A stretch of DNA of 64,000 nt from Tubulanus polymorphus. Lineage: Eukaryota > Animalia > Nemertea. The notes beneath the pieces were generated by a model, which had not been told where the DNA came from, made no database searches, and saw only the letters and a program-made list of their open reading frames with translations. The stretch lies in assembly GCF_964204645.1 (NCBI RefSeq), contig NC_134025.1, positions 29,058,299-29,122,298 of the forward strand, given 5' to 3'. The translations under genes and the position numbers were made by a program. This document shows, piece by piece, positions 1-39,230 of the stretch (the first letter of the stretch is position 1; each line of letters opens with the position of its first letter).

Positions 1-963
1 TTCTGTCTCAGGTTTTCGATTCCATTAGTGTCGGAAGGATGTCGTACACACTTTTAACAACCGACGACGTAAAAGTCGATACCTTATACCTATACAGCGT
101 CCTACACGTACAAAACATCGCCGGAAAAACTCAATTCTCTCAATTTTTAGGCCTGCGTTTGATAATAGAACTATTCAAATCACTCTCCGTCACATTAAAG
201 GAAGCAAACGAAATTGAAATCAATCGGTTTTTGAAAGTTGAATTGTTGTTTATCTGTCAACGATAAAGAACGCTGTCGTTAACTGTGGCCTGTAGTTATT
301 GGTTATGTGTTGTTGCCTCTTGGCGTTTTCGACACGGCGTAAATATGATTTGATTAACTAGATTTATTACAATAAACGACGGAAAGGGACTGGAATTCCC
401 TGGAGTAAAATGCATCAAGTCCAACTACATCAGTATAACATCGGTAGAATTGACTTCGAGTAAGAAGACTAAGTGATACTTATCACACACTGAAACGATC
501 TCGAACGTGTTTATTAGCATCGCGGGCGCAGTTAATGTATCAAATGTCCAAGTAGTTGATCCCGTGGGTTAGTTTTATAAAGGCACGGCTACGGATGCTC
601 TATGTGCAATCTATACGGAAGAAATGACTCCGCAATTTCATAAACTAACAGTGATTTATCTTTGAACACCGACTCCGGATTATCACCGTAACCATATTCA
701 ACGGTTTTTCGAAATTCTTTTAAGACGCGTTCTTTTTGTAAAAGTAGTGTAACGTAAGTTTCTAGCCCTATTCCGGACACTGCTGGTGTAAGATTATTCT
801 GGAATTAGTTCGTTTCTGGTAAATACTTGATTTTGAAGTAATATCACGTATCGGCGAGATTGCCTTGAGATTATTAGGGTAACGAGAAGTTTTGTCAACA
901 ATACACAGTTTTTATTATAAAGATGGCAACTGAATACTAATTAGGCACGCGCCTGATATACGT

Positions 964-1105
964 CATCCTCCCTCTGCAGGGACTCGAACCTGATAGCATC
1001 GCTACACTCAGCCACGGCACGAACCCCTGCATCAGTAGACCGGGTGCGCAGGTACATGCGCAGCTTTTCGAACGAAAACTGGCGGCACCAATCAGATTGC
1101 TCGTT
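964..1105 (-). repeat. tRNA-derived (SINE-like) repeat, copy 1
   Basis: Minus strand reads ...GTGCCGTGGC...ATCAGGTTCGAGTCCCTGCAGAGGGAGGATG, with a pol III B-box GGTTCGAGTCC at 980-990. It is an imperfect reverse complement of 1166-1306. Confidence 0.6.
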
Positions 1106-1165
1106 GTATAATCGTTGAGGCAAATTTCAAGGAAGAACTATAAATGGGAAAACCCGGGCTAAAAT

Positions 1166-1306
1166 AAAACGGGATTTCTGATTGGCTAAAAATCACATCA
1201 TCTGAACTGCGCATGTATCTGCGCACACGGTCGATTATGGCAGGGTTTCTTCGTGCCGTGGCAATCTCGATGCCATTAGGTTCGAATCCCTGCCGGGGGA
1301 GGATGG
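1166..1306 (+). repeat. tRNA-derived (SINE-like) repeat, copy 2
   Basis: ...GTGCCGTGGC...ATTAGGTTCGAATCCCTGCCGGGGGGAGGATG, with B-box GGTTCGAATCC at 1279-1289. Same family as 964-1105 and 41938-42020. Confidence 0.6.
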
Positions 1307-2593
1307 ATATACGTACGTACTCATTTGTAAACAATGTTCTTCTTTTAGTCAGCGTTCATAGAAAAAAACCCGTATTCGCTGTCACGTGTTGAGAAGAGAT
1401 TTAAATTGACGGTTTCGCGGCGAGGTTTATCATTATAACCAGCTCGCTCTTGACTTAAATCCGTGAAATCACTCGGAAATGATTATATTTCGACGGTGAT
1501 TCATCTTTTGAATCTTGGCTCGGATACAAATCGAAAGCCTGTACGACTGTGATATCAAAGATTCTCATATAGTTAAGAATGTTATCTAATTTTATGCCCA
1601 ACGATTTTTCGTGCGTTGAATCCAGCGATTCGACGTCTTTGCCATCGTTTATCCTTTTTTCATTCATTCTAGTGCGATGAAACGCATCCCGTAGAAAATG
1701 GATTTGAAGCCGATTCCATTTCTAGTCAGTATAGTGTTAACGACTTAACTCCACAAAACCCAATCTCCGAATCCGATTAGTAGTGATTCATAACATGAAC
1801 AAACAAAAACCATGAATGTATAAGACGAACAACGAACACCGAAGACAAAAATTGAGAATAAAACAGAGGTTGAAGCTTCCATAGCACAGGTTTGACTTAT
1901 TATCAAAATAAACATTAGAATGCCATCGAGGATGCGCCCCATAACAAATCGATATAGAATGAAAAAAGGCTATGATGGCTGAGTGGATATTCAATCAACT
2001 GAGATGACCAGTTGTGATTTATCATATCAGAGTAGATAAACATGAAGCCACCATTACATTAATGGGAATTCAATCACACTGATAACATCATCTTATTCCG
2101 ACATATATGGGCAAGAATTAATAATCTAAGGGTATGTCACCAGTATCTCTAAACCTATATTTACCCAGACCTCTTCGCGTGTTTTTCGAAGGTCGTATTG
2201 CTTTTTAATTTCACGATGATATTGATATATGAAAAATCTTTACGTTCTCGTAGTAGCCTTCGTAAATAAAACACGCGATAAACCTCTCAATTTTTCTATC
2301 GAATCACGTAATATTGATATTAATGAAACTATTTGATTCGGAAGGCGTTTAGATGCGTAATACTGAATGGATGATACTCATTTCGTGTGTTCTTAACTAT
2401 GAAGATGTAGTTCTCGCGAGCTTATGGATTTTGAATAGGTAATTAAACAATAATTACTGGTAATCTAATTGATACGTTAATTAATCCGGCTGATGGACTT
2501 CAGCGACAACTTCACAATCAACGACTGTTCAATTTGTTTGGCGTTTAATCACGTCATACGCAACGTAAATCTAACGTAATCCGTCATTATCCG

Positions 2594-2601
2594 TGACGTC
2601 A
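2594..2601. promoter_or_regulatory. CRE palindrome TGACGTCA upstream of the small secreted protein gene
   Basis: Perfect TGACGTCA about 170 bp before ATG 2769, within a cluster of ACGT cores (2550-2601). Motif match only. Confidence 0.3.
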
Positions 2602-2768
2602 TTTCAATTTCTTATCAATTGGCTCGGAGAGACTTTTTTGATATAGTACAAGCGAAACGTAAGAATAACCACGGAATTCCGATGATGGAAGGTTTTACGA
2701 AACTTGTATAGAAATTGCCAGCCAGTGATTCGTAGCTAATCTATATCGTAAATGAAGAAACGGTGGAT

Positions 2769-3774
2769 ATGATTTCAAGTTTTCTTATTCTTCTTATTTG
2801 CGCTGTTGTAACGCGAGGTAAGTCTATACTCCTCTCATTCGCTCAAATTCGACTCTACGATAACAAAAGCCCTCGGCTTTTATTTCTACTTTCCTTTCCG
2901 ATGCCCCACATTGCGGTGTCACATTTATAGGAGTGGTTGCTCTTCGCCTCCTCTTTGCATTTTTCGTAGGCAGAGTTGGGAAGTTCATATCTGCCTATGT
3001 GTGTACGGGGATAAATTCACTTTGACGTTTGTAAATTTGATTTATTTTCCTCAATACCATAAGAGGTAGCTTGTTACCGGGATGAAATGTTCTAACGCGA
3101 TAACCGTTCAATATATACCACGACGGTGGGTAAATTCAATTTCACCCGAAATGACAGCGAACTGAACACTCCTATTACGAACGAATTCGAATAAATACGA
3201 TGAAAATATCGGAGAGTCGCCGAGGTTTGCTAATTGCTCTAGAATTCAGTGATTGATAATCTATACATATATTAGTGAAAGATGATCGAGTCTTAATACA
3301 GAATCTACGAAAGCGTCCTGGAGACATTTGGAAAAAGATTTCGAGGTTGATTCCGAGTAGGCAACTCGGAATAAAGTAGTTTTCCTAGTTAAAGTGATTT
3401 TTGGAGGTTTATTCCTAACTTCGACATTTTTCTTTAGATATATAATTATGTCCCCAGGACGCTTCCGCCAGAATCCATCATTTACACTGAATATCATTCT
3501 TCATCGCACGTGAAATGAATTATTTTTCGTAGGTTCCGCGGCTAAATGGACGATGGGTAGCGGTACGTGTAAACAGATTGTACGTACCAAATATCTGATA
3601 TCGGTGGCACAATGTATAAACGCTTGCGAAGCCGGTCAAGACCCGTTTTATTCAGATAACCAGTGTACCGGCTTCATTTACGATGGGTTTTACTGCAAAA
3701 ACGTGAAATACTGTGAACTACGCAGTTCTGGCACCTCCAAGATTTATTACAAGACCATAGGTAAAGATGAATAG
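2769..3774 (+). CDS. Small secreted cysteine-rich protein, PAN/apple-like (96 aa; exons 2769-2817, 3533-3774)
   Basis: Exon 1 ATG 2769 encodes hydrophobic MISSFLILLICAVVTR and ends G|gtaagt. Acceptor tttttcgtag|3533 joins in phase 1, in frame with ORF 3553-3774. Product: MISSFLILLICAVVTRGSAAKWTMGSGTCKQIVRTKYLISVAQCINACEAGQDPFYSDNQCTGFIYDGFYCKNVKYCELRSSGTSKIYYKTIGKDE. Six mature-region Cys, including CxxxC...CxGFxY...C as in PAN/apple domains. Confidence 0.75.
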
Positions 3775-4067
3775 CATACAACTACATTTCGATGTAACTT
3801 TTTTCCATTTAACTATAAATTGCCTGTTGATATCTGATAAGCTAAAAATCTTGGACTACAGCCTTGAAGTAGCATTTGGAAAGGTGAGTTTATCACATTC
3901 ATTGAAATGAACATCTTAATTGGTTCAATACACTGTTTTTATCTTATCTTTGCAAACACGGTTTTCAAACACATTTACGAAGGTAAAACATATATCGAAG
4001 TAGGGTATATGCTTCGATACAAGTCATATTGCTCCGTTTGCAAAATTGAGTGTCTACTGTAATTACG

Positions 4068-6230
4068 ATGTTATTTTGTGTTTTTGCGACTCTAAGCTTG
4101 CTCGCACGAGCTCGGATAGATGCTGAAAATACCGCGTTTTCAAAATGGGATCCTCAACATTGTCCCCAAGACATCAGACCTATCGACGTACTACCAGGAA
4201 AAGGTTGGGACAATCTTCAAAACAGACCACTCGGACAAATACTGTCGTTGAATTTCTCCAGATGTCGCCTCAGTTACGATAGAGCTTACATGATACCGGA
4301 TAATGTGGATGTTTCTCCATCGCGTGTGAGTCAGGTGGACGTTTACGCCGAAACGATTAAACACTGGTCACAGTATCAAAGTACCACTTCGAAAGGCATC
4401 AACGTCGGAGCGGAAATGATGTTTAAGCCGCTGGGTAAGATCTCCGGATCTTATTCGGACGATTTTCAACGGAATAAACTTCATTACGTCAATCGAAAAT
4501 CGTTCACAACGAGGCTACAACTACGCCATGAAATCTATGACGTCGCGGCGGAAGTGAATTCTCCTCTACATCCGGTTTTTAAATCGCGTCTACTCGAAAT
4601 AGCGTCCCATTTACAGGCTGGGGATTTGAGAACTGCGAACTTTTTGTCGCAACTGCTGGTCAGGGATTACGGGACTCATGTTATTACAGAAGTTACCGCG
4701 GGTGCTGCACTCATCCAGGAAGATAGGCTACTAAATTCGTTTTCGCTAGGTGGCGGTGGTATCGTCTCAGAAAGTACAATAGCTGCTGCAGCTGGTGCCA
4801 CATTCTTCGGTAAACTATCAATCGGCGGTAATACCACGCATAAAACCGGAATTTCGGACACGACCTTGACCTATTACCTGACCAACCGTACCAGTTCTAG
4901 TTTCGGCGTCATAGGTGGCGCTCCGTTCGATTATACGAAAACAGTTGACGAATGGCGGCAAACGATCCCGACTAATCTAGCGGCAATAAATCGAAATGGA
5001 GAACCGATGTTCAGTTTGGTGAACAGATATAATTTACCGAGACTTCCAGCGACGACAATAAAAGACCTTCAAAATTGTGTACAAGACGCCGTGAAACAAT
5101 ACTACATCCATAACGCCCACTTCGGCTGTTTAGACAGTAATTCTAAACATTTCGATGTCAGAGCAAATATCGGACCGGACAACGAATGCGCAGAAAACAA
5201 AAATAATTTTACGTTTGGTGGAATTTATCAAAAATGCATCGGCGCTACTTGCGACGGACTGACGCAAGTTAATCCTAAAACGGGTAATTACACGTGCCCC
5301 GACGGGTTCCAGTCCGTTCTGCTATACTCAGGGGCTCGACGAGCGTGTCTACGAAAATGCGAACGATCGTTTCTATTCTTTAAACATTGTTATGACGATT
5401 GTACGATCGTACAAGACGACCAGAATACGAGATACGGTATCTACTGGTGTTCGCCGATATCCGGTGTTCAACAAAACAGCGGATATCTTTTCGGCGGTAT
5501 CTATAATTACATGAATAATAATCTACTGACGAAAGATCAAAGCTGCCCCGAAAATTTCTATCCGTTGAATTTCGGTCCCGGTACCACGATCTGCCTCAGT
5601 GACGACCAAGAACTCGCTAAATCGAGCTCAGTCTCTTTCGGTGGTTTTTTTAGTTGCAAATCAGGCAACCCATTGAGTATCAATGAAAATAAAATGCTCG
5701 GAGTATCGGCCGTCCCGGATCTGGCCACGTATTTTCGCGACAACAAAGCGTCGCTGTGGCCGAAACGTTGCCCCAGTGGTTTCAACCAACATTTAGCAGC
5801 TATCGTCGATTCGTGTGAGATCATGTACTGCGTCAAAGCGTTAACGTTCGTTTCGGAAACTCTACCGCCATTAAATCGTCCGCCTTATTCCAGCATGCCA
5901 TCTATGATTAACAACGGTAGTCTTATCTTGTTCACTCGTTCGCAACGGATTCTTTACAAGAAGAATGCCGGTTCCGATTGGGAAGAATCTTCGCCGGAAC
6001 GAGTTGGTATTATACACCAAGGATCATTAGCTTCTGATGATGCGACGACGACCGTTCAGCCCGGTGTAACTGCCGCCCTCACTATTGCCTGTACGTGTCT
6101 GATAGCTGTGATGGTGGCTGCAATCGTGTTCGGTGTACGCAAATTTCGAAGGAATTCTCGTCAACAACCCCATCATTCACTCCCGAATCAGCATTACAGA
6201 GCTAGCGAACAAACTGTATCAATTGAATAG
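4068..6230 (+). CDS. MPEG1: Macrophage-expressed gene 1 / perforin-2 (MACPF + P2 domain + TM), intronless
   Basis: First ATG at 4068 gives a signal peptide. MPEG1 hallmarks present: VLPGKGWDNL, YGTHVITEVTAGA (MACPF signature), NFTFGGIYQ, NPKTGNYTCP, SGYLFGG, FGGFFSC, CPSGFNQHLA, a C-terminal TM helix and a short basic cytosolic tail. Confidence 0.95.
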   Translation: MLFCVFATLSLLARARIDAENTAFSKWDPQHCPQDIRPIDVLPGKGWDNLQNRPLGQILSLNFSRCRLSYDRAYMIPDNVDVSPSRVSQVDVYAETIKHWSQYQSTTSKGINVGAEMMFKPLGKISGSYSDDFQRNKLHYVNRKSFTTRLQLRHEIYDVAAEVNSPLHPVFKSRLLEIASHLQAGDLRTANFLSQLLVRDYGTHVITEVTAGAALIQEDRLLNSFSLGGGGIVSESTIAAAAGATFFGKLSIGGNTTHKTGISDTTLTYYLTNRTSSSFGVIGGAPFDYTKTVDEWRQTIPTNLAAINRNGEPMFSLVNRYNLPRLPATTIKDLQNCVQDAVKQYYIHNAHFGCLDSNSKHFDVRANIGPDNECAENKNNFTFGGIYQKCIGATCDGLTQVNPKTGNYTCPDGFQSVLLYSGARRACLRKCERSFLFFKHCYDDCTIVQDDQNTRYGIYWCSPISGVQQNSGYLFGGIYNYMNNNLLTKDQSCPENFYPLNFGPGTTICLSDDQELAKSSSVSFGGFFSCKSGNPLSINENKMLGVSAVPDLATYFRDNKASLWPKRCPSGFNQHLAAIVDSCEIMYCVKALTFVSETLPPLNRPPYSSMPSMINNGSLILFTRSQRILYKKNAGSDWEESSPERVGIIHQGSLASDDATTTVQPGVTAALTIACTCLIAVMVAAIVFGVRKFRRNSRQQPHHSLPNQHYRASEQTVSIE

Positions 6231-7232
6231 AATGATCCCTTTCTCAACTGAAATTATAATCATTATCATTCATTGATTCATCTTAGACCAATAGAACTTG
6301 TCCAGCGGTTAAACAGTCCTATATGCGTAAGCGCATTGTAGACTCCGCCTTCATCGGCGTTTGGGCTGTAAATATTTCACTGCCGAGATTAGGGTCAGTT
6401 TGAAGGATTAATGAAATCAACGAAAATTCTTAGTAAATTTCAGTTAGATAAATGGTTTACCAGTCACTGGTGTATCAAATATAATTTCAAGATTTCGTTG
6501 ATATTTATTTCAGTTATTGAATGATGAATGAATGAATTTATAACATCTTTTTTCAATCGATAGTATTATCAGATATTATTCGAGCGTTGTTCCGCCATTT
6601 ATTTTACAGCAAGAAAATAAATAGCCGTTCTAATGCATGAGTCAAGATCTGTAATTACGCTTTCGAACCGTAACCGACATGAATTTCAACACAGATTTCA
6701 GTAATCGCTTGAAAGACTTCAAATAAGTATTAATACCGTTTTATGTTTTATGTGAACAGCTAAGGGGTAACATATCGGTCACGTTCCACGCACACAGAAG
6801 AATACGAGATATTGAATTGCGGTATTCAAATTCTATAGACTGCGCGTAGCAATTTGGAAAAAAACGGCGACAAATCGATATTGAATTACCCATTTACATG
6901 AGTACAAGAAAGAACATTTAGAAAAAAAAACATGGAAGATTATTTACATTTTAACAGTGAGCGGTACAGGCCTACCGCGTATATTCCGGGGTTTTGAAAA
7001 ATTGAATAATATTTCCATACTTAAACATTGTATTTACCAACGGACATCCCACGTGTAGAATAAGCGACAGATCGGTAAACAGTTCTAATTGGACAGAACA
7101 AATAAAATGGTTTCACCAATATTTGCAAATATCGAACAATCTATAATATATCGTAAAACACAGGGATATAAACATCTGAAATTGGGTAGAGCACGATGAC
7201 CATTAACGAAACACTCTCTTCGTGTCGTACCA

Positions 7233-7564
7233 ATATAGAATCCCTCACTCAGAAACTGATATAGAATCCCTCACTCAGAAAGTGATATAGAATCCCTCAC
7301 TCAGAAACTTATATAGAATCCCTCACTCAGAGAGTGATATAGAATCCCTCACTCAGAAACTTATATAGAATCCCTCACTCAGAGAGTGATATAGAATCCC
7401 TCACTCAGAAACTGATATAGAATCCCTCAATCAGAAAGTGATATAGAATCCCTCACTCAGAAACTTATATAGAATCCCTCACTCAGAGAGTGATATAGAA
7501 TCCCTCACTCAGAAACTGATATAGAATCCCTCAATCAGAAAGTGATATAGAATCCATCATTCAG
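7233..7564. repeat. 26-bp minisatellite, about 12.7 copies of ATATAGAATCCCTCACTCAGAAACTG
   Basis: Directly visible tandem array. Variant unit ends (ACTG/AGTG/ACTT/GAGTG) occur in a periodic order. Confidence 0.97.
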
Positions 7565-8826
7565 TAAAGCAAGACCGAAAAGTTTTCGTTCAAGGTTATG
7601 ATCTATCATCGACGTTTCAGCTATATCCTGTCTACAGGCATAATAAGGTTACAGCAAAATTATGGCATATCAAAACAATCCACATCAGAGCAGGCGCGGA
7701 ACCAGGATTTTTGCCGAAACATCATACAAAACATTAAAAACATCGTAAAAACATCATAAAAACAGTTACTTTTCAGACTCGTTTTTCTTTCCGAATGTGA
7801 GATTTTATTCAATATACTTTAATAAGTCAGTTCCCCAATCAGTTCGCTGAGATTTCAAGACTCGACAAGCAATGCCGTAATGTACATGATCTGAATCTTT
7901 GACGGTGGGTCAAAAAATTAAATGATTAGTTGTTCATGACAACGAAATCCCTTAACGAGTAAATTTGAATATCGTTTCAACAGAATTGAGACTTGTAGAT
8001 TAATTGATTATGTAAATCGCATAGAATACAATCAATCTATAGGTCTGATCGAGGATTATACGTAACATGTATAAAAGCGATCAGCTCAATTAAACTGCTG
8101 CTGTTTCGACGTGTAGAAAAACTTGTTGTATATAAAGCGTTAGCGACGGTAGCGACCTATTAGTAGTATAGTAGGGTCTCGATCGAATCGTAAACCAGGT
8201 CCGTGTGATCGCGCGTCGTCTTTTTCTTGGCAACATTAGACGGTGACTGATTGTGACACTCGTGGCGCCCCTAGTTACCACTTCAGTGTCATATACACGG
8301 AAAACTGTTGATTGTCATTTGCAGTATCGGACATCAGTACATTATTTCCACTATTTCTCAGTGGTTGCAGGTGAGTGTCTGTATGTAAGAAATATTATCA
8401 AAAAAGTAATCAGTCATTTGAAATAGCCATTCGAAAGTTTATACGCGAAGTAAAAACGAAAAAAAAAGTTAAGAGCGAATGTGACTTTCACTGAATATCG
8501 TCTCGTCACTATATACCACTTGAGGCGAAAACTTGATTCGAGATCGAGAGCTATTGATATAATATCTTTCTTCTGAAAACAGTTTTGCCTTCCTACTGGT
8601 TTTAGCTATTTCACTACTGCGAGATGTTTGCGATCGCGTGTCAATTGGCTAATAATATTGAATTCGTTACACGTGTATACCATATCACATCATATACCGG
8701 GAAATTTCATGTATATATCATCACTACTGCTGAAACTATCTTGAGCAGGTTTCATTATTAGTTCGACAATAGTTCAATTCAGCTCTATATTATTACGCTT
8801 TGAGAGTTATTGGTCGAATACGTATT

Positions 8827-8844
8827 GGTTGCTAAGGACGCGAA
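8827..8844 (+). promoter_or_regulatory. RFX X-box-like motif GGTTGCTAAGGACGCGAA
   Basis: Matches the X-box half-site type (GTTGCTA-GGA). The identical 18-mer occurs inverted at 10399-10416. Lies upstream of the ciliary gene ODF3. Confidence 0.55.
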
Positions 8845-10398
8845 AGGCGCAGTCACACATAATATATGCTCGAACTGATTTCACTCGATGTATAAATAAA
8901 TACAACTAAAAGCCTGTTATCGGAGATATGTAATATTGATTGCTGTCAATAAGGTTAGTACAAACTCATTTTATCACACGTGCAATATAACCACTTACGG
9001 ACGAACGATCTTAGATATGAAATGAAATAAATTATATTCGCATCGATTTACCTGTATATTTCAAGAGAAAATGTTTCAAGAGCTCTTTTGAACAGTTTGT
9101 AGAAAACGCAATATCATATCGTTATTCTATATTGATATAAGCATCGATAATCACCTAGACCGTTCAGATCTCAAATCATGATTTGAAATTAATTGAAATA
9201 AGTTAACCAAAGTCGAATCTTAAGCTAGAAAAGTATAACTGAGCTCAGCTTTCTAGTGAAACTGTCGATAGTGTCACTCGATATGGCTCATCCATCTCTA
9301 CTACGATCCATCAAATCGTTCTATTATCGTTCAATGAAAAACAATTAATTATTAATAAAAACTACATGTATGATTAGTATATTGAACGGCTACACAACAT
9401 GGATATTTGGTACTAATTGTATGCAAACTATAAGAATAAAGAGATACTAGGTAATGAGTGATACTAGAGTTTTAACGTTTACAGATAAGCAAGGCGTTAA
9501 CGGGATTTCTCTCTTATTCATCTTACACGGATATTGTGTATCTTCTCGACTTATAAATAAGGCTTCGATATCTATCTCTCATAAACTGTACTACCTTAAA
9601 AATGCGCTATCAAAATTTCAATGAAACATATTCCAGAACTTTCCCACTAAATGCATTGAATTTTCGAGTATCGAAGTCAAACTTGATCTATATATTAACT
9701 CTTTGAAAAGCATTTTAATTACGAGAGAATTCTCTCGTCCGTTGTAACGGTGTCTACTGGTTTTCATACCGTGCGACACATTATTCTTCAACGCTGTAAG
9801 AATAAAAAGTGATTAAATTGTAAATTTATAGTTGTCTTGTGTTTACATACAGCTGTTGTGCGGGGTAACGATATTATATCAAACATCAAAGATTTCATCG
9901 ACTTCACGTTTAATCTGATAATTAAGTAACTATGGCAATCAATTAACGTTATTTACGCTGTTTCATATAAAACAAGACCAAGAAAACATGTCTTTAGGAA
10001 GAGAACTTCACTGTTCTGGTAAATTCCTTTCGAGGAGGGCATGTCATTTTATGAGAGATTTCTAATAAAGAAATCTGTTGATAACCTTATGCGCTACTTC
10101 GTAATAAACTCAAGTCATGTAATAAGATATCGAGGAGTTATGTAATGGGCTAATCGGGTTGGTTTCATGTCAGATCACTTAGTTGAATATAGATCGTTAT
10201 TCGTTCCTCGCTGAATTCGTTGTCTACGGTTTAATTCGGCGCTAGAATTCTACCGTACGCATCAATAAAGACAGCTTTCACAAACAGGATATGAACGGTA
10301 AATAATTAACGAGGAATCGGCTTTTCACTCAGTCGGACCGGTAGTGACGTATAAAAAGAGAATCATAAACCGTTTACCGTGACTTCATAATCCAGTGG

Positions 10399-10416
10399 TT
10401 CGCGTCCTTAGCAACC
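10399..10416 (-). promoter_or_regulatory. RFX X-box-like motif (reverse complement of 8827-8844)
   Basis: TTCGCGTCCTTAGCAACC lies about 135 bp upstream of the ODF3-1 ATG. Confidence 0.6.
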
Positions 10417-10549
10417 TTTAACTACTAGAACAGTAGAGTAAACAATCACCAGTCAAACGACGTTAATTTGGTCAACAAGTGTTCTCGGACGCGCTGAAGG
10501 GCTGATATTTAATACGTATTCATTTGTGTGATTTTAGGATTTATAGAAA

Positions 10550-11903
10550 ATGGCCAATAAGACGATACCAAGGTGTCCACCGGCTGCTGCCTACGGTACA
10601 AGCCCTGGACCCGGTAAATACGGTCTCCCAGGAATAATTGGTCGACGAGATCATGACCCGAGGAGTGTCCACTTTAAAGGACCCGGTTGGGTGTTTGGAA
10701 CCAAGCACGGTAAATTCAGAGATGATTGTAGCCCTGGCCCGAAGTACGATCCGGGACGACAAACCCGTCACGGAGGCGACGGCGCTCAGAAATATTCGCT
10801 TTACAGCCGAGCACGCGATCCTTCGACATTCAAGACGCCGGGAGCAGGGGCTTACCGCCCGGAGGAGCACTGTGCCGTTTATCACAAAGCACCTATCTTC
10901 AGTTTCGGTTCCAGACATAGATCCCGAAGGACAGATGATACACCAGGTAAATTGAATTTGGTATAAGAGAAAAGTAACAATTTTCGGAACGATTTTCGGA
11001 ATACAACCTGATCGATATCCAGCTAAATATATGTATTTCATTTATGTATAACAGGACCAAACCGATATTCATTGCCAAACATGTTGGGTAAAACACCGCA
11101 GTCAAACAAAGTATCAATGCCAGGATATTCACTATCGGGACGCAGTAAACAAGGAAGCTTCCACGAGGATTTAACCCACGTAAGTGTAAATGGTCGTTCG
11201 AATATCTAATCGAAGTTGAAACAATATAAATCAATTTATAAAACACCATCGCTTACATATATTTCACAGACGCCAGGACCAGGAACGTATAAGATCACGA
11301 ATCCAGATATATTCAAGGATGCGTTACCTAGATATTCGATGATTGGTAGAAACTCAATGCCTGGAGACACAACGACGAAACCAGGACCAGGTGCCCACTC
11401 CCCTGAAACTGTGAGTATATATCTACATAGTGTAAATATAGACCTAGAATCATAGACAATACCTTCAGTCGCTTTGCTTTTGTGTACTCAGATCTTAAAT
11501 GCAATATATATATCCTAAGCTCTAATTCTACGTATCAGCAACTTATACATGTGTATCTATTATCTATATTCGTAGTCTACCCATACTTATCATATCGTGT
11601 ATCGTAAATCTATTAATTTCTCCGCTAAAAAGGCTTTCTAAATACCTTTTGAATATGTGTGAAAAAATGGATCCAGTTCCATCAGAGGCTCAAAAATAAT
11701 CCAACTATAAACAGTCAAATAAGGAACAGACTGTAGAACCGGGTCTTGGATATTCACACACATTGCACGCTCTATGCTTATGACTATATTAGAAAACATA
11801 TTTTAAATAGGTTCGAGTTAACAAACGAGATGCACCAAAATTCTCGTTCGGTACCCGCCATTCTGAATATGTTGCTCCGCTTATAATCGAAGTGAAGGAT
11901 TAG
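10550..11903 (+). CDS. ODF3: ODF3/CIMAP1-family SHIPPO-repeat ciliary microtubule protein, paralog 1, proximal-last-exon isoform (251 aa; exons 10550-10946, 11055-11179, 11270-11410, 11811-11903)
   Basis: Repeated SPGP/TPGPGxY...FSFG.RH SHIPPO motifs. All junctions are GT-AG and in frame. Last exon VRVNKRDAPKFSFGTRHSEYVAPLIIEVKD*, with AATAAA at 12201. Confidence 0.9.
11669..11745. mobile_element. Degenerate mini-MITE (GGATCCAGTTCCA...CTGTAGAACCGGGTC)
   Basis: Ends resemble the TIRs of the 24034-24148 element. Confidence 0.4.
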
Positions 11904-12272
11904 CCGTGTTTAGGTATGTATGAATAGATAAATCCCGCATTGCTAAGAAATATTTTAGCAGAACATCGAAATCTCGTAGTATCTTATTGTTATTTTTCGT
12001 TTTTGTTGTTAACTGTCTATACATTTGAATTGAGCTAAACCACAAAAATAGAAGAAAAAACTATGAGATCAATTTAACGTTTCGAGTCTAATTCTATGAA
12101 TTGTGAAAGAAGGCTCATAATATTTGCGCCTTAACGTCAAACTTCTCTTATAGTTTTTGTCTTCATCAATTCGAGACTGCATCTTTTCGTTAATTTCAAA
12201 AATAAAGATAATGATACTGAAATCCATGAAAATGAGACACTGAAAATTGATTTTGATTGGATTTTTTTTCAG

Positions 12273-12356
12273 AGACGCGCGCAGACCGCTGGACCATCAT
12301 TCGGTATCCGCCATAGCCCGTATATAGCACCATTGATCGTCGAAGTGTGCGACTAG
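12273..12356 (+). CDS. ODF3: Alternative (distal) last coding exon of ODF3 paralog 1
   Basis: Strong acceptor tttttttcag|, phase 0 like exon 11811. Encodes RRAQTAGPSFGIRHSPYIAPLIVEVCD*, homologous to the proximal exon. Has its own AATAAA at 12572. Confidence 0.85.
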   Translation, partial: RRAQTAGPSFGIRHSPYIAPLIVEVCD

Positions 12357-14332
12357 GAGATTAACGCTGTCTTCGTGCAAAACAAAATCCGAATGGAGAA
12401 AAATTTACTACCAAATTTCATTTCAACGAAAATAGATCAAATTAATATTTTAAGAATTCAATTCCAGAACTTACATATTACCGTTTTTTTTACAATTTTT
12501 TTTACGTAGTGCGTGTTGAGAATTTCTCAATAACATCATCATATTCATCACATATTCATTGTCATCATTCGAATAAAATCACTTTTCTTTCATTTAAAAT
12601 CTTTTTGCAACAAAGTTAGTAAATCCGCTCAGCTAAAACAGATTCCAAATAACAATAGTATTGCCATACGCTGTATTCGACCTTGGAGCAATTATCTTGA
12701 CAAGATGATTGTTCTAAGTTTTGACATTGCGCGACATTGGTTTCATTGGCTTCAATGAGCCGCTTACGCTTGACGGTCAAAATAATGCGTTGTGACGTCA
12801 CGCGAAAATCTCGCTTTGCTAGAGAAACGTTTCGCTATGAAGAATATTTTCGCCCTCAAAAGAGAAGTTGCCCATGAGATCACATGAGTCATCGGTTACT
12901 TCTCTATGAAAAAAAAACTCTAGTTTAGTGGAATACTGCTGTAGTCACCTGTGATATACATATTACTGAAATGATTTAGAAATATTCTTATCTATCGGTT
13001 TCTATTTTCTGGTTTTAAGTTAACATAATTACTATGATATTTTGTTTCATAACTTGTTACCTAGCTTAAGATTCGTGCTGAGTATCGAGTGAACCAGTCT
13101 TTAATTCATCATTCCTTTTAAGTACGGATTTTATTTACAGAAAACGTGTACATATAGTGAATATATATAAATGTATAACTAATAAATTGTGGTTGCAGAA
13201 ATATTATCTTCTTTATCTTATCGATTTTCTCCTTCGTTTTTTCCTTTTGAGCTTAGTGCAGTCGCTCGGGTCATTATTAGCCAATCAGAAATTCCGTTTT
13301 GTTTAAGCCTGCCTGGGTTTTCACCTGAAATCATCAATCGCTCCATGTGCGGCAATTAGCCACGTAAAGCGATTTAAAATCCAATTTTTCGTTCAATGAT
13401 CGTGGCCTTGATAAGTAGATCACGCCGCGCGTGTAGTTGCAACGTGCTCTCTAGGTCTCTCCTAAAACCCTCGCTAGTGTTAGGGTTAGGGTGATACTGT
13501 TGTTTTCTTTGCAAAGAGAAAATCATGTACTTTTTTCAATTAATTAATCTACTTGGCGCACACAATTCTAACAGATGTTTGTTGACCTATAATCCAAGCT
13601 GCTGTTACTGAATATTTTTACGTGCAGGGGACATTTGACGAAGGCGCCATCTTGTGAACAGATGAAGTTGGAATAGCTGACGTGGTGCGTACGCGATCGC
13701 ATGATAATATCCTATAAGTATGATATAATCGGGCGCGCGTTTATGATGTAATCTGTTTCTCCAATTTTGCTGGTGATGTAGACCAAAAACGTATTATACG
13801 GTAATGCTTTTTGTGTGCTGATGTTTCCAGCGTTTCATTGATATTATGTATACTTAAACTGCAGTCATCATCGACATTCATCGATTTTGACTATAGGACG
13901 AGCGAGAGCAGAGAGTGGCATACGCCATTTCAGATTACTGTCAGCTGCTTCAAACAGTAGGTTATGTGACGTTGGACTATAATACCGGTACATCGTTTGC
14001 TCAATTTGATGATGGAATTAACAAAATTATGTATATCATAACTATATCAAATGATATTAATGATACGTAATTCTTTTTTTAAAATGTACTGAGATATGAA
14101 AGAGGTCAAGATTAAATGGGTTGACTAACTAGTTCAACTAGAAACAATGAGCCGTTGCGAATGGGCACCTCCCAAGTTTCATTAATACAAATGTATAAAT
14201 ATATATACATAGTACAAGAATCGGTAAATGAATATTTTTGCTTAGCTTTTTTCTAGTGTATAACTGATCGCATTTCTATTTCAGATGTTCACCGAGTCAC
14301 TCCTGAGTTAGCACCACCACGAGACGGAAATC

Positions 14333-15151
14333 ATGCCTACGCTCATAGGGCACGCTATACCCGGCGTATTCTTCTCGGGATTTGCTCTCCATTGGACTAT
14401 TCAAATTTGGATTCGTTATTTCAAATGCAAACGAAATCAGGAAAAATTCTATAATTCTTGCACGTACCCGTGTTCCTGTTTTTGCGGATGTTTTAAAACC
14501 TACCAAGTTGAAAGCGTTTTTAAAGTCCTATTCCTCACAATTGGACTCATTATAGAAATAGTTGTGGGTTATGCCGACGGAACTGTGTCCGTTGCGCAGG
14601 GTCAGCATTCTACGATGTACTGCGCTTTCATTGTCGCTGGAATTCTCGATCTTTTGATTCACCACAAAGTTAGATTTATTCCCAAAAATGCCGACTACAT
14701 GGCATCATTTCTCGCTTTCACAATTGAAGTGATTCTATTCAAGTTCCATCTACACGGTCGCAGCAGTCTGGACGTACAATTGCATACTTTACTAGTTTAT
14801 GTGGCCGTCCTAAGTGCAATATCACTTTTAGCTGAAATGCGATACCCGAATAGCGTTTTAACTGGACTCGCGCGTTCATTTTCCGTTGGCCTTCAGGGAA
14901 CCTGGTTAATTCAAATCGGATATATTCTTTATTATCCATCTCCTGATGCATCAGGTTGGGACGGTGAAAACCACGAGCAAATGATGATCACTACAATAAT
15001 ATTTGGTTGGCACATGTTGATTATTTTAATCGCTATAATCACTATCGGAGCGATCGTGAGTCGCTTTTTCCGCTACGATTATTCGAAAAACGACGGATCA
15101 AATTTAGGTTTAATTGAACATGTTACTGATATTGAAACCTATAAGGACTAA
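14333..15151 (+). CDS. TMEM45B: Transmembrane protein 45 (DUF716), single coding exon
   Basis: GHAIPG N-terminus, QHSTMY, FKFHLHGR, LQGTWLIQIGYILY, and FGWH motifs with about 7 hydrophobic segments. A splice acceptor ends at 14284, implying a 5' UTR exon upstream. A versus B orthology is not resolvable. Confidence 0.9.
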   Translation: MPTLIGHAIPGVFFSGFALHWTIQIWIRYFKCKRNQEKFYNSCTYPCSCFCGCFKTYQVESVFKVLFLTIGLIIEIVVGYADGTVSVAQGQHSTMYCAFIVAGILDLLIHHKVRFIPKNADYMASFLAFTIEVILFKFHLHGRSSLDVQLHTLLVYVAVLSAISLLAEMRYPNSVLTGLARSFSVGLQGTWLIQIGYILYYPSPDASGWDGENHEQMMITTIIFGWHMLIILIAIITIGAIVSRFFRYDYSKNDGSNLGLIEHVTDIETYKD

Positions 15152-23740: not shown

Positions 23741-26700
23741 TTAAGACATATAAATAAACATGTTATTATCATCCTCGGCGCGGCGCATGTATTTGTGTTC
23801 TATCAACCATTCGATTTGTTCTTTGATCGTTTTCTTCGATGGAAGGAACATGTTTTTTAGTATGTCTATTAATTCAGTCTGTAACGCCGCGTACGTGATG
23901 CGTTTCCTCATTTTCATTATTTTCACAATCGCCTCCTGTTGGAAGAGAAAAAATATTCCATAACTTAATGATAGTTCAACAATTTCGAGTAAAAGAATTA
24001 ACTAAACTTAAGAAACTTAATTAATTATTGGCCCTTGGCCCAGTTCCACAGTCGTGAGTTAGAGTTAACTCTGAGTTAAAGTTAGTTCATTTTCAATGAG
24101 TTAACTCCGAGACAAATCTTAACTCACAACTGTGGAACTGGACCCAAGAATGTCATCCCTCTACCGGGAATTAGTTCATTTTCGACTAGTTGAAGTTGTT
24201 TTAAGTAGTTTAACCCTGAACTGTGGAATACTGAGACATACCTGCACCCTGAGTATTCTAAGTTGCATGATTCCTTCATTATCCTCCTCTTTGGCACGTT
24301 CAGTTGCGAGTTGTAATCGCCCGATCAGATTAATCTTTCCTCGTTTTTGTGGCTTTCCCTGTTTACTGTAAAGCGTACAAACATCGCAACACATTTTTAA
24401 CGATGACTGAATGCGATCATATTTAGAATGTTTGGCAAACTCGCAAGTTTGGACGATCATTATCCAAATAACGACAAACACTTAGTAAATTTAATTGGAA
24501 GTACAGGCTGGACGACTAAAACGGTTCGAGTGTACCAATGACTCGAACTGATACTCACATGAGAGCGAACTCTTGGTTCGACCAGAACTGTGTACTGTCA
24601 CTGAAATCTTTTGGATTTTTGATACCGGCATCGCATAATAAAACTTGTCTTTTTAGTTTAGGAAAGGCAACGAGTGACTGGAATAAACAAAAGAAAAAAA
24701 GTAACAATGGTGCCGTTTCATCTTTTAAAGTCGCAATTAAAACTTATTAATTAGTTTAATGAATTTCGAATGCGTGAAGAGGTGCAGGCTGCAGACACTT
24801 ACCCACAAGGTTCTCCTGAGTTCAGTATCTGGAAGTCCAGTAGCGAGTTTTAAATTTTCGTAGTTGATTCGATCTTTCGGTCGTTGATTCCAGGCGAACA
24901 GAACCGCCATTTGAAACGTAGTGACTTCCAGGTCGAAACGACCGATTTCATTCGCGAATGATATCTGTGAATTGACAAATCATTATAAATATAAGTCGTT
25001 CGATGAATTCTGTTCAATAATGAATATGAATTTGTGTCACATACAATTCCATTAGACATCAGATGATGCCACTGTAGTTTTCGTCCGCTGTGTTTCTGTC
25101 TGTAAAACTCTTCGACTTGTGGTATATAATCCTCTAACTCCATAGGTAACGATACAGTCACTCGATCACTACTTCTCGCCCACGCACCAGCATTTAATAT
25201 CTTTATATTTATGGAATCTACGAATAATGAATCGACATGTAAATCACTTCAAAGTATGAACACGTATCGGAGTTCTTAAGCCGAGGCAAATCACCGCTTT
25301 TGGAAGTCAAAATTTAACACTTTTCCCGGACTCCACAGAGACCAGTTGCCACAGGCAGATCCAGGATTTAGGAACTCATTTAATCCAGAAAGGGGTCGGT
25401 CATAGGGGTGCTCTGGAATATTTTCTTTTTTTAAACATCCTTAGATACAATTTCAGTAAAAAATTTATCATATCTCCCACCCACCACATCTTCAGCGTTT
25501 TGCTTGAAAAGAAAGCACTGTGGTATCTAAGACCTTGACTATTATTCCCAGTTAAGCTAGCAGTTTTAAGACTTTATCAGACTACGACACAAAACCTACC
25601 GGCTATTCCTTCATTATTGTTTCTTTGAGCTTCTTTGAACTCTAGATTCAAGTCTTCACTAACTTTAATATCTTGGAACATTCGCGCTAGTTTATTTACA
25701 TAGTCGGCAGGCATTCCCACTTCCTGTAACATCAGAAGATAATGAAAAATTTCAAAATTGATGATATCTGAAGTATATTTTTCAGAGAGTTTCAAGGTTA
25801 ATTCTAAATCGCACCTTCAGAGCAAAGGTTATCATAACTGTTCTTCTGAAGATGGGATTTAGATCAGTATTGAATCTATATGAAACCTACCCTGAGCCAT
25901 TCGACCATATTTTCCTCTTTCTCATTATCAGCTGACGTGTCTAGGATCAAACGCCTGGTTAAATGAGCTTTATGATATCTCATGAATACGTCTTTATTCT
26001 GTACATATTTCAATACCAGTAACTGTTTAAAAAGAGACCGACATTTTCCTACTAAAATTGATCATCAATAATTCGATATTTCAGTCGATTTGCCGTGTGT
26101 AAATACGAACCACATCGCGTAGCTTTTTCTCAACTTCTTCTGACGTCAATTTTTTGCTGAGTGGGGTTTTTCTTAAAAGCATATCACAGTAGTTAGCAAG
26201 CAGTTCAGGACATTTTGACTCCGGTTGAGTTTTTGCACCGACACTGAAAATACATCACAATCATAGCAGAATAACGGTACACTCTTCAGACACGGAGAAT
26301 AAACCCACTAAGATTCGAATAAACTTCATTCATCAAAACTTAGAAGACACAATGTTTAGACTTAGTTTCTCTCTAGAGACCATTATTAGGTGTGAGAAGA
26401 AATACACGTTACAATTTGTGTTACCAACATAATCTATAGAGAATCATTTTTGGACTTTTTATCATTTTTTCGTTATCATTTTATATTCGAAGACAATTCG
26501 ATTCATTCTGAATATACTTAAAATTAACATATAATGGGTTTAAATTCAAACATCAGTGAATCACAGTCGGTGGAGTGAGAATCGAGATATTTATCGATTC
26601 TGACGATGACTTACTGTTTATTTTTAGAAGGTAGTTCTAATTTAAACACGGATGTATCATTGACGACGAATCGGTAGGCTTTATCACGAGACGTTAGGAA

Positions 26701-29700
26701 CCGAGGATCATCGTGAAACGCATCTTTCACTAATAAACTAAACCTATTAAACAACATCAGTAAACGTTCGACGTATTTCTCCGAATCCTGAAAATAACCG
26801 AAATCGTTCCGAGTTTCATTTGACAAGTACCAGAGCAAAGATCGGATTTGATTGATTCATCAGAGGACTAAGTTTCAGAGTTCAGAGTTAAATATGAATC
26901 TAGCTGGATGGCCACTTTCCACCAATTTACAAATTCCCCAAGGTTTTCTTGATTTTTCCATGTTATCACACAAAATTAGTAAATCAGAGCGATTTCCGGA
27001 TTTCGAATGTTACAATTCATTAATTTCGAATCACGCATTGATTAAAAAATGCGTGGTCAATAACATATTCCAATTCCCTGAGTTTTCCCCAGATTTTTTA
27101 TAGATTTAAAATTGATTGTCAGGAGGATCCAATTCCGGTTAAGATTTGAACTTAGGGACAGATTATACACTCAATGAGTTTCATTTAACGAGTAGTGAAA
27201 TTTTGAATATGTTTGAGTTCAAGAACCGAGGACTCAATACAAGGCTTGTAAGACTTCTTGATGAAATTGGTTTTAAAATATCAGGACGTGGTTCCGCATT
27301 CAAACTTATATGTCGAATTTAACGATGAAACTGAATCCAGAACGTACCGAGGTGATTTCATCCGCACAAGACATCATATCAGCTAAACCAGCGTGTATAA
27401 CATGAGCTTCTAGATCCTGTAACATCGGATTGATTCCATCAGGAACTCGATCCATTAAACTGAACATCAACTGTAGTTCTGTAAAACAATACAATTCACC
27501 ATCATCAAACAACATCAAATCAATAGATAAATAGTGATTTCCATCAATTAGTGATTTCCATCAATGTGATTCAACATGGCATGCACAGAACAGGGTTCAT
27601 AGCCTCAATATCCTGAGCTGATTACACAACATTTTCAGCCAAATTCCATGCCTTTTTGTCAACAATTCATCATAAATGATCATATTATTGGTCGTATTAT
27701 AGGTGCACTCTAAAGAAAAATAGGCAAAGTAGAAATTTGAAATTTCCAATTTCATGACTCATTCAAAGACCTTCCACAACTAGTATGAACCCTGTCAGAA
27801 TTAATAAGGCAAATACGCATTATTCTGATGCATTAAAACGAACAAGAGACAACAGTTAGAAAGAGATTAGTAATAAAATGGGACAATGTTTCCGGCATTG
27901 TAAAATTTACCCTTACTTTCTGTTTCGTTATTACGGATCATTTCTGCGCACTCGGCCAGAATCTGATCTTTAAACGCTGTGACTAATACATTTACACAGC
28001 AGTCAATTAACTGAAAATACAACAACAATAACAAACATTTAAATCAGCAACCACAACAAGAAAAACCATTTTCATTGATCAAACTCAAGGTGGCCACTTT
28101 CCGCCCATTTCCCTGAAGTTATAACAGAAAATTCCCTGAGTAAATCTGAGGGATTTCTGGGTTTAGAATGTTACATTTTATTCATTTCTAATAAATCACA
28201 TAGTGATCAAGAAACATGTGGACCACGCCATATTCTATCGAATTGTGGTCGATAAGATATCCAAATTCCCTGAGATACAATTCAAGGATTTCAAGGGGAG
28301 TGTATGATGAAAATTGAAAGTCAGTACGATACATACTGCTGATACCGATGAACATCCTTTTCTAGTTTCTAGATATCGTTGAGCTCGCTGTTCTTCTTCT
28401 TTTAGTTTCAGATCGGCGTATTTCATATAATTCTGAACTCCGTTTTCCGCCAGATACTGCGGCGCTTTACTGCGATAAAACGCTTCCGTAGCTTCGAGAT
28501 ATTTACTTTCGAAATTCTCGCGGTAGATTTTCAGTTTGTCCTCGGGATCGCTGCACAGATTGACTTTAAAGTGAAATAAATAACAGCCGGTTCATTAAGA
28601 TCAGGGGTCAGTTGCTCAGTCAACGCTAAAATTTAAGACCAGTCTAAGACCGTTTTGGTTCTATATCCGATCTAATAACTTACGACCAGTCTATAAGTTT
28701 TGGGGCACTTTCGGACTTTTCTGTGCAACCGGGTCAACTGGGCCTTGGGGTCAGTTGCACATGTCTTGACTAAAGTCCAAAAGTGGTCTTAAATCTTAAG
28801 ACTGGTCTTAAGTTGTTAGATTGGCTTTAGGACTTAATTGGTCTTAAACTTAAGTCTAAGCCATGACTGTGCAACCGGCCCCAGGGTCATTCCTGGGTGT
28901 AAGGAGTTTCACAGAGGAGAAAGCAGGGACAAGAGATGTAATTTACCGTAAGATTCTCGAACTCCGATGACCAACTGTGAATCGAATGCTTCACCATTTC
29001 GTTCGGCGTGAACTAATTTCATGCCACTGTCTAACAAACGATCGTTTATATCGGAGAATATACTCTGATTCCAGCTGTCTAACATTAACTACAAAAACAA
29101 TACATACATCTCACTTACAGTAGAAATTATCATCATCCATCGGCAAGTGACAAATTCATTTGATGAAAAAAGCCAAAATTACGAAGTTAAACCAATGGAG
29201 GATTGAAGTTCTAACTCACATCATGTAATTTGATAATAGCCCCCTGTTAAAATATCTAAATCCTCAACTTTTATTGCGTAATTGTGGATATTTTCTTCTA
29301 TGAATGAATGAAGAAAATATCCACGATAATCACATTATTTCCTGTTATTAGGCAGTCAAACTATGCGCCGACAAAATACATTTTACATGTATTTTAGTGT
29401 GTTGATCAGTGATTACACACCGTACATTCTGCATGGCCTTTACAAGATTATCGATTGGAGCTAGTTTGACAGTTATAAGTTAGATCTGACTCAAGGGTTG
29501 GACATTAACTAATTCAGTCAGATGGAATGAGACTAGATCAATGGAACCGGCCAATAGGTTAAATATATACAGATCTAAAATATGAGTTCTTACCTTTCTA
29601 ACAATACTTTCTTCTTGGTTTTTTTTCTGATTACTGTGACTCGGGCCTTTATTAGCGAGCGTGATCTCTAACTGATTAAACGGTTTCGGTAGATAGTCGC

Positions 29701-38071: not shown

Positions 38072-39230
38072 TTTGGCATCAATCTGTAAGATTTAATAAC
38101 AGTAATAGTCCTAGTAAAAATATTCAAAACTCTATCGAGACAAGTCTTGAAGATTTTGGACGGCTGTATAGGCAGACACCTTTAATAAAATACCAATGAT
38201 TGGAGATCTTTGATGATGTGGCAGCATTTCTAAACAGTATATAAACATCACTTTGGGCTGCCTTGCTTCTATCGAAGTGTTTTGACTACTCAATTAAATT
38301 TATTTGAATTATATTTGATCGTAATCGAATATCTGATCGACCTTGTTTCGTTGATCGTAACGACAATCTTCTCCATTCAAGAGGAGGACTACAATTAACT
38401 TCATAAACCACTGGGAGGTTTCAAAAATCTTCAACTGCCAAACGCAAACTTACCGGGAATTCCTCTCTGGAAGCGGCCCGACCAAGCAGTGGAGCGCGAC
38501 TGACACACGCTACACACGTGCTTTCCGTCGAGTGTCAACAAACAACCAGACAGAAACCTACCAATCAACACCCTTGAGATACCTGACGTCACCACGCGTT
38601 CGCCAATCAGCTTTGACGACCTTAATTGGCTTGACTACACGTCCGTTTTGGGTTCGAATCCTAGAGAAACTACAACTCTAAAACCTTTCACAGAACGAAA
38701 ATATAAATGGAACTCAATAATCATTTCAATATTATTAAATAATATTTTTCAATCTACCAGTAGTCAGTACATTTTTAAGTAACAAATTATTGGACCACGA
38801 GAATTTCGCGGACCACAGATCCAGATGGCAGCACCTATCAGTTATAGTGGATTGTCAAGATTTGCGGGTAAGTCTCCTCTTCTTTATGGGTTATTCTTGG
38901 TGGGATGATATGTTATGTGCCATTTTTAGATGTATCAGTTTAATACAATCACATCACCGTGTGAAATAAGACGACGTAATTTTTCTTCATAGGGTTATAC
39001 TAAAGGTAACAAAACGATCCGTTGTTCTGGTCCGGCGGTTGGCGTTTGTCATACAGTCGTTGTCACGTTGAGCGAGCTCGAATTACCCACAGCCTTGCAT
39101 TCTCTACGTAATAGTACTGGAAGGAAAAGGTACACGTATTTGTTTTTATTAAGTCCTCTCTTTTTCGATTCGATTTATTTTTCATTATGCATCATTGACC
39201 AATATTTTCTTTTAGGCTAGCAGTCCTGCA

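What the first reader, a model, noticed from the sequence alone, without database searches (positions are those of the whole stretch)
2769..4067. Small secreted six-Cys PAN/apple-like protein tightly coupled to perforin-2
Seen in sequence: a clean two-exon gene (signal-peptide exon, phase-1 intron, mature six-Cys domain of about 76 aa) ends 293 bp before the MPEG1 ATG on the same strand. I see no AATAAA in the gap. Established knowledge: PAN/apple modules bind proteins or glycans, MPEG1 is a bactericidal pore-former, and a signal exon plus phase-1 intron is typical of secreted effector and toxin genes. Inference: this could be a co-expressed or read-through recognition-plus-pore module, or a novel lectin-like, antimicrobial or toxin peptide.
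Basis: partly seen in the sequence, partly recalled or inferred. Interest (0 to 1): 0.7.

Follow-up and report, generated by a model that had tools for sequence, protein, structure and literature searches.

The report
Unannotated secreted PAN-like protein beside perforin-2
In what is likely a ribbon worm, a likely real two-exon gene that my protein-database searches did not find would make a small secreted six-cysteine protein, probably of the sugar- or protein-binding PAN type; it ends 293 bases before an ordinary perforin-2 gene, which is likely made separately, so a partnership between them is untested.

Summary
The anatomy is as reported: signal exon 2769-2817, phase-1 intron, six-Cys exon 3533-3774, MPEG1 ATG at 4068, no AATAAA in the 293-bp gap. 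The small gene is probably real. Its signal exon is the only strict one in 64 kb, and two haplotypes in a DNA run differ at 5 sites in exon 2, 4 of them silent. The splice junction itself is unverified. No homologue was found in the protein collections, and there is no Pfam hit. PAN likeness is motif-level (C-x3-C...C-x-GF-x-Y...C-x-L; HHalign probability 88%, partly circular); unbiased folding failed. It is not an apple domain in the strict sense. Coupling is unsupported. MPEG1 is an ordinary intronless 720-aa perforin-2 with its own signal-like N-terminus, held as a stand-alone protein in NCBI/UniRef, and none of 119 relatives carries a PAN pattern. The gap holds a variant poly(A) signal, a TATA-like box and a perfect, unpaired splice donor (3884). 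These fit an MPEG1 promoter but leave a shared transcript open. Verdict: a new member of a known kind beside an ordinary gene; partnership about 8%. The scan's notes held no look-alike on other DNA.

The parts
2769..2817 (+). Exon 1: ATG plus 16 codons of a hydrophobic, signal-peptide-like stretch; phase-1 donor GAG|GTAAGT
   Evidence: maximum 9-residue hydropathy 3.68; only strict case in the window; no difference listed in DNA run X1
2818..3532 (+). Predicted 715-nt phase-1 GT-AG intron; holds part of a high-copy repeat near 3340-3470 and a second acceptor-like site at 2969
   Evidence: junction not verified by RNA
3533..3774 (+). Exon 2: mature six-Cys PAN-like domain (C-x14-C-x3-C-x12-C-x9-C-x5-C), about 8.8 kDa, pI 8.5, then TAG
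   Evidence: 4 of 5 allelic differences silent; PAN profile match
3761..3766 (+). Weak phase-1 donor (TAG|GTAAAG) just after the domain; would make exon 2 a 1-1 module exon
   Evidence: Score 1.6, top 4.3% of GTs, lower than the two RNA-verified donors (4.5 and 4.1)
3814..3820 (+). TATAAAT: possible TATA box of MPEG1, or a variant poly(A) signal
   Evidence: 17% chance in 293 bp, so weak alone
3884..3889 (+). Perfect donor AAG|GTGAGT with no strong acceptor before ATG 4068: end of a non-coding first exon of MPEG1, or a 3' UTR intron of the small gene
   Evidence: One of 4 such donors on the + strand (0 on the - strand) in 64 kb; null P 0.004 in 293 bp
3927..3932 (+). AATACA, variant poly(A) signal followed by a T-rich tract: candidate 3' end of the small gene
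   Evidence: that AATACA works as a variant signal is recalled, not from a call
4068..6230 (+). Intronless MPEG1/perforin-2, 720 aa: own signal-like N-terminus, MACPF, P2/MABP domain, transmembrane helix near 670-690, cytosolic tail
   Evidence: PF01823 E 1.9e-17; 6SB3 E 7e-120; 6SB1 E 3e-46; contigs of the spliced run X4 cover 4536-5175 and 5454-5970
6616..6621 (+). First AATAAA after MPEG1

Best explanation
This is likely a real, unannotated two-exon gene whose product would be a secreted, roughly 76-79-residue, three-disulfide protein with a probable PAN-type fold that likely binds a glycan or an extracellular protein; it lies 293 bp before an ordinary perforin-2 gene that is likely transcribed and translated on its own. 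Steps: (1) shown in the DNA: the open frame, the splice motifs and mostly silent allelic change; (2) inferred: splicing 2817>3533, signal cleavage near residues 17-20 and secretion; (3) inferred from alignment: a PAN core with disulfides C28-C61 and C32-C45 and an extra C13-C55 pair; (4) by analogy with leech LAPP and Sarcocystis SML-2: it acts as a stand-alone adhesive or recognition module in mucus, body fluid or matrix; (5) inferred: its transcript ends near AATACA 3927, while MPEG1 starts from a promoter in the gap, perhaps with a short non-coding exon ending at 3883.
For: Only strict signal exon in the window. Rare Cys pattern. Good acceptor. Two X1 haplotypes (depth 18 + 22.9 against about 37 in the flanks, so alleles) differ at 5 sites, 4 silent: pN/pS 0.07, P 0.008 by site count, 0.045-0.05 on stricter nulls; MPEG1 gives 0.12. 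PAN profile from 40 domains: 8.5 bits, best of 654 window ORFs, reached by 1 of 1000 full and 1 of 1000 Cys-fixed shuffles; HHalign probability 87.8, E 3.3e-6, 37 columns; four Cys, the F and the C-x-L align. The unseeded model has strand-helix-strand-strand-strand order. [quoted passage not shown]
Against: No homologue in any protein search and no Pfam family. The PAN seeds were picked with the same motif, and 74 of 1000 motif-fixed shuffles score as well, so support outside the motif is thin; the next window ORF scores 7.2 bits. The second-to-third core Cys spacing is 12 against the usual 5 (PMC3261864). Even the PAN-seeded model reaches only pLDDT 54 and Z 4.7. The 293-bp gap is far tighter than two other same-strand gaps nearby (about 4.3 and 3.7 kb stop to ATG), has no canonical poly(A) signal, and the 3884 donor has no strong acceptor before 4068. 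MPEG1's own signal stretch is on the weak side (27th percentile of 94 sequences). Five SNPs are a small sample.
Confidence: 0.5

Rival explanations
1. Shared transcription unit: the transcript runs past the stop to 3883, splices to a weak acceptor in the gap (e.g. 3982) or reads straight through, and ends after MPEG1, so both proteins would come from one promoter.
For: 293-bp same-strand gap, no AATAAA, perfect donor at 3884 unlikely by chance (P 0.004); both products enter the secretory route.
Against: TATAAAT 70 nt before the donor fits a separate start just as well; acceptors in the gap are weak; a 96-codon upstream ORF would hamper MPEG1 translation (established knowledge); a search for spliced-leader trans-splicing in nemerteans listed one paper, on chaetognaths (listing only).
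Confidence: 0.17
2. Secreted cysteine-rich mucus or proboscis peptide (antimicrobial or toxin) whose PAN likeness is incidental.
For: Signal exon, six separate Cys, net charge +2.4, no homologues; ribbon-worm mucus holds unannotated peptides with a C-C-C-C-C-C framework (PMC12846013, section 4).
Against: No C-x-C (defensin or scorpion-toxin type) or CC (knottin type) motif and no pro-region (motif definitions recalled); variation is mostly silent rather than diversifying; no tandem paralogue in the window; the PAN motif match holds.
Confidence: 0.15
3. Silent remnant or chance ORF: a decayed or unexpressed exon-shuffling product.
For: Absent from the protein collection that holds the neighbouring MPEG1; poor folding.
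Against: Intact frame, Cys and splice motifs in the window and in X1; 4 of 5 differences silent; a signal exon and the Cys pattern, each rare, in the right order and phase.
Confidence: 0.1
4. PAN-perforin-2 fusion: exon 2 is a 1-1 module exon spliced from donor 3761 to a phase-1 acceptor at 4110 or 4119, just past MPEG1's signal sequence.
For: The donor sits right after the domain, and both AGs are in frame at the start of mature MPEG1.
Against: The donor is weak and the acceptors very poor (bottom tenth); no such protein among 141-2000-aa entries (weak); no PAN in 119 relatives; MPEG1 has its own ATG and hydrophobic N-terminus.
Confidence: 0.05

Closest known systems
PAN module superfamily (Pfam PAN_1 PF00024, PAN_4 PF14295; TgMIC4, HGF N-domain, factor XI apple domains)
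   Same: C-x3-C helix, C-x-GF-x-Y strand, C-x-L strand, about 80 residues, secreted.
   Different: No Pfam hit; 7-residue insertion between the second and third core Cys; extra Cys pair placed internally, not at the termini.
Leech anti-platelet protein LAPP (PDB 1I8N) and saratin (2K13); Sarcocystis lectin SML-2 (2YIL)
   Same: Small secreted PAN proteins that act by binding collagen (LAPP; PMC7191736, passages) or galactose (SML-2; PDB titles); listed for the PAN-seeded model at Z 3.7, 2.2 and 3.5.
   Different: No sequence similarity found; the structural match is circular and weak; ligand unknown.
MPEG1/perforin-2 (PDB 6SB3, 6U23; Lingula, Tubulanus and Lineus proteins at 38-41% identity)
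   Same: MACPF + P2/MABP + transmembrane helix, intronless CDS, 18 conserved Cys.
   Different: One extra ectodomain Cys (C337) seen in 0 of 110 relatives, giving an odd count of 19.
Apple-snail perivitellin-2 (MACPF chain disulfide-linked to a tachylectin; bioRxiv 10.1101/2019.12.23.880021, abstract)
   Same: The working model for a lectin-plus-pore pair.
   Different: The lectin there is a six-bladed propeller and the MACPF is soluble; here the pore-former is membrane-anchored and the small protein has an even number of Cys.

Membership tests
PAN module | Four core Cys (pairs 1-4, 2-3) in the C-x3-C...C...C pattern (PMC3338822) | tested here: met
   C28, C32, C45 and C61 align with the four invariant Cys of 40 PAN domains; spacing x12 against the usual x5
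PAN module | Match to a curated PAN profile over cut-off | tested here: not met
   0 Pfam families at E<=10 (HMMER filters apply)
PAN module | Profile similarity beyond the core motif | tested here: inconclusive
   P 9e-5, HHalign 87.8%; 74 of 1000 motif-fixed shuffles tie
PAN module | Alpha/beta PAN fold | tested here: inconclusive
   Unseeded pLDDT 42.5; seeded pLDDT 53.8, top 12 rows are PAN-containing proteins at Z 3.4-4.7, rmsd 2.6-3.9, 54-70 aligned, circular
PAN module | Disulfide connectivity and ligand binding | not testable with these tools
   Needs mass spectrometry and binding assays
Apple domain (strict subtype) | Third disulfide linking N and C termini | tested here: not met
   Last Cys is residue 61 of 80; first is 13
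MPEG1/perforin-2 | MACPF domain with Y/F-G-T-H motif (motif recalled) | tested here: met
MPEG1/perforin-2 | P2/MABP domain | tested here: met
   6SB1, E 3e-46, residues 353-625
MPEG1/perforin-2 | N-terminal signal stretch, C-terminal transmembrane helix, intronless CDS | tested here: met
   Hydropathy only, no SignalP; single ORF
PV2-type lectin-MACPF AB toxin | Soluble MACPF chain and tachylectin propeller partner | tested here: not met
   MPEG1 has a transmembrane helix; the neighbour is 80 aa
PV2-type lectin-MACPF AB toxin | Inter-chain disulfide | not testable with these tools
   MPEG1 has a spare Cys337; the small protein's six Cys are even in number
CS-alpha-beta defensin / scorpion toxin | C-x3-C helix paired to a C-x-C strand (recalled) | tested here: not met
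   No C-x-C in the peptide

The most novel reading that the evidence does not exclude
One ribbon-worm transcription unit makes a small PAN lectin and perforin-2 together, and the lectin docks on the pore-former (perhaps through its lineage-specific spare Cys337) to aim it at microbial glycans: a two-part recognition-plus-pore effector built on perforin-2, parallel to snail perivitellin-2.
Probability: 0.08. Interest if true: 0.75.

Novelty: new member of a known kind. Interest (0 to 1): 0.3.

Why it matters
At the least it adds a small secreted gene that my protein searches did not find, with a divergent six-Cys PAN-like layout, in a phylum whose mucus is full of unannotated cysteine-rich peptides. 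If the shared-transcript and partner reading were true, it would give perforin-2 a genetically linked targeting partner and make its target choice in invertebrates directly testable. My searches (listings only) showed no paper reporting such a link.

Tried and rejected
Expression: no RNA holder was listed. Run X4 behaves as RNA (two GT-AG skips at 10943>11052 and 11179>11270) and has low-depth MPEG1 contigs but no contig on exons 1-2 or on MPEG1's first 470 nt; X5 laid nothing. Both blanks are uninformative. X1-X3 behave as DNA. Complex prediction of the MPEG1 ectodomain with the small protein: no verdict, score 0.00, folded without alignments. Homologue searches for the exon-2 peptide, all empty: near length, longer (25), 1.84 billion representatives (24), Pfam, PDB sequences (17, best E 5.9), plasmids, viral contigs (35). 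Two hits were rejected as chance: L001 lies antisense to a long bacterial ORF; L002 is a 14-residue match that I did not inspect. Fold searches with the unseeded model gave nothing meaningful (best Z 2.7, no PAN row listed, which excludes nothing); Foldseek with the seeded model gave no E<=0.001. The protein Atlas was unavailable. No whole genome is held, so paralogues and synteny could not be tested. Bacterial PAN seeds: 0 of 301 genomes over cut-off, not used. Of 59 viral loci, 21 gave no stop-free in-frame domain and were dropped; 42 domains, 40 unique, were kept. No Rfam hit in 1-12000. The bacterial promoter scan was irrelevant. No convincing downstream coding exon between 6230 and 10600 for an 'MPEG1 nested in an intron' model. 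Ribbon-worm toxin papers: no PAN-domain or MPEG1 mention in the main texts of PMC10674772 and PMC12846013, no PAN mention in PMC9415933, and nothing in its supplement. The supplement of PMC12846013, which holds the sequences of its six-Cys peptides, could not be read and may bear on the toxin rival.

Full report
Observation. Exon 2 has six Cys spaced C-x14-C-x3-C-x12-C-x9-C-x5-C. MPEG1 starts at 4068, 293 bp on, and the gap has no AATAAA.

Is the small gene real? Three lines say probably. First, exon 1 is the only strict signal-type exon on either strand of the window; the null gives P about 0.005 within 800 bp, or 0.03 with a loose donor, which finds 6 plus-strand and 4 minus-strand cases. 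Second, the Cys pattern occurs once here and in 2 to 3 of 150 simulated windows; both filters were chosen after seeing the sequence. Third, DNA run X1 has two contigs over 3619-3732 at depth 18 and 22.9, which sum to the flanking depth, so they are alleles. They differ at 5 sites, 4 silent third positions and one Tyr-to-His change. pN/pS is 0.07 (P 0.008 by sites; 0.045-0.05 on stricter nulls), like MPEG1's 0.12 from 10 silent and 4 replacing changes. The sample is small and the junction has no RNA proof. The peptide is not in the protein collection at 44-140 aa or 141-2000 aa (weak) and has no relative among 1.84 billion representatives, while the neighbouring MPEG1 is there exactly, from NCBI and UniRef. 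So the gene looks unannotated.

Is it PAN? Pfam gives nothing and single-sequence AlphaFold fails (pLDDT 42.5), though its element order, strand-helix-strand-strand-strand, is compatible. I collected 40 PAN domains from viral contigs by a degenerate motif. One was checked against Pfam (PAN_1 over cut-off), and their profile retrieves factor XI, kallikrein, MIC4 and HGF from the PDB. The peptide scores 8.5 bits (P 9e-5), best of 654 window ORFs (next 7.2). It is matched by 1 of 1000 full shuffles, 1 of 1000 Cys-fixed shuffles and 74 of 1000 motif-fixed shuffles. HHalign gives 87.8%, E 3.3e-6 over 37 columns. C28, C32, C45, F48, C61 and L63 align to invariant columns. Because the seeds were chosen by that motif, this is partly circular. 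So is the seeded model (pLDDT 53.8; top 12 rows PAN-containing proteins, Z 3.4-4.7). PAN modules are defined by four Cys and recognised largely by pattern (PMC3338822, passages); the MIC4 consensus is CX3CX5CX11C (PMC3261864, passages). I put a PAN-type fold at about 70%. The strict apple subtype is excluded by the Cys positions.

The neighbour. MPEG1 is ordinary: MACPF, full-length match to mouse and human perforin-2, transmembrane helix, 18 conserved Cys plus one spare, C337, found in 0 of 110 relatives. Best relatives are from Lingula and two ribbon worms; earlier notes call this genome a ribbon worm (unreviewed). Invertebrate MPEG1 genes have no CDS intron (PMC3477005, passages), as here. 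Among the best 120 of 412 hits (itself and 119 relatives), none has a PAN pattern and the longest N-terminal stretch is 97 aa. Contigs of run X4, which is spliced elsewhere, cover parts of MPEG1.

The gap. 293 bp is tight against about 4.3 and 3.7 kb for two other same-strand gaps nearby. Lack of AATAAA says little (69% of such stretches), and AATACA with a T-rich tract lies at 3927. TATAAAT at 3814 is weak alone (17%). The perfect donor at 3884 is one of four on the + strand in 64 kb (P 0.004) and has no strong acceptor before 4068. It fits a short non-coding first exon of MPEG1, or a 3' UTR intron that carries the small gene's transcript onward. A weak phase-1 donor at 3761 and in-frame AGs at 4110 and 4119 allow a fusion on paper, but those acceptors rank in the bottom tenth.

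Mechanism. Most likely a secreted single-domain binding protein, working like leech LAPP (PAN domain, binds collagen; PMC7191736, passages) or the lectin SML-2, from its own transcript, next to an independently expressed perforin-2 (0.5). Rivals: shared transcript (0.17), mucus or venom peptide (0.15; PMC12846013 section 4, reports unannotated six-Cys mucus peptides), silent remnant (0.10), fusion (0.05). The known lectin-plus-MACPF pair, snail perivitellin-2 (bioRxiv 2019.12.23.880021, abstract and outline), uses a propeller lectin and a soluble MACPF.

Literature seen. Passages only: PMC10674772, PMC10781884, PMC3477005, PMC7593815, PMC7191736, PMC2575384, PMC4986456, PMC3338822, PMC3261864. 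Passages plus one supplement search: PMC9415933. Passages plus section 4, supplement unreadable: PMC12846013. Ten searches listed no paper on a PAN protein linked to MPEG1, judged from listings.

Verdict. A probably real, unannotated, divergent PAN-like secreted gene: new member of a known kind. Coupling to perforin-2 rests on spacing alone. Interest 0.3.

Noticed in passing
window 964-1305; partial copies 41938-42019, 13270-13309: Element with about 100-bp inverted arms and very high depth in DNA runs, MITE-like, 1.5 kb upstream of the small gene.
   Followed up: partly
window 5076-5078 (MPEG1 Cys337): Spare ectodomain Cys absent from 110 relatives, which have small residues there in the three closest; may be semi-buried or free for an inter-chain bond.
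   Followed up: partly
window 3564-3598: A separate 556-nt contig of run X1 (depth 21) matches 35 nt of exon 2 with 5 differences: possible paralogue or chance; not retrievable.
   Followed up: no
window 8325-8370: 46-nt exon-like stretch with a good acceptor and a perfect donor; perhaps a 5' UTR exon of the SHIPPO-repeat gene at 10550, or the partner of the 3884 donor, which would nest MPEG1 in an intron.
   Followed up: no
window 7233-7567: Tandem array with a 52-bp period.
   Followed up: no
window 10550-12357 and 18871 onward: Two SHIPPO-repeat (ODF3-like) paralogues flanking a DUF716 (TMEM45-like) ORF at 14333-15151; the first is spliced at high depth in run X4.
   Followed up: partly
window 24850-29848 (-), 35804-38092 (-), 39361-39783 (+), 46992-51631 (-): Cullin, long single-ORF tubulin-tyrosine-ligase-like, dual-specificity phosphatase and potassium-channel-like genes: no immune cluster around MPEG1.
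   Followed up: partly
window 2969: Second TTTTTCGTAG acceptor inside intron 1; by my reading its phase-1 frame closes after about 18 codons.
   Followed up: no
L023-L081: PAN domains are common in large-virus contigs, mostly of the four-Cys type; one (L036) has an extra Cys pair placed like the window's peptide.
   Followed up: partly
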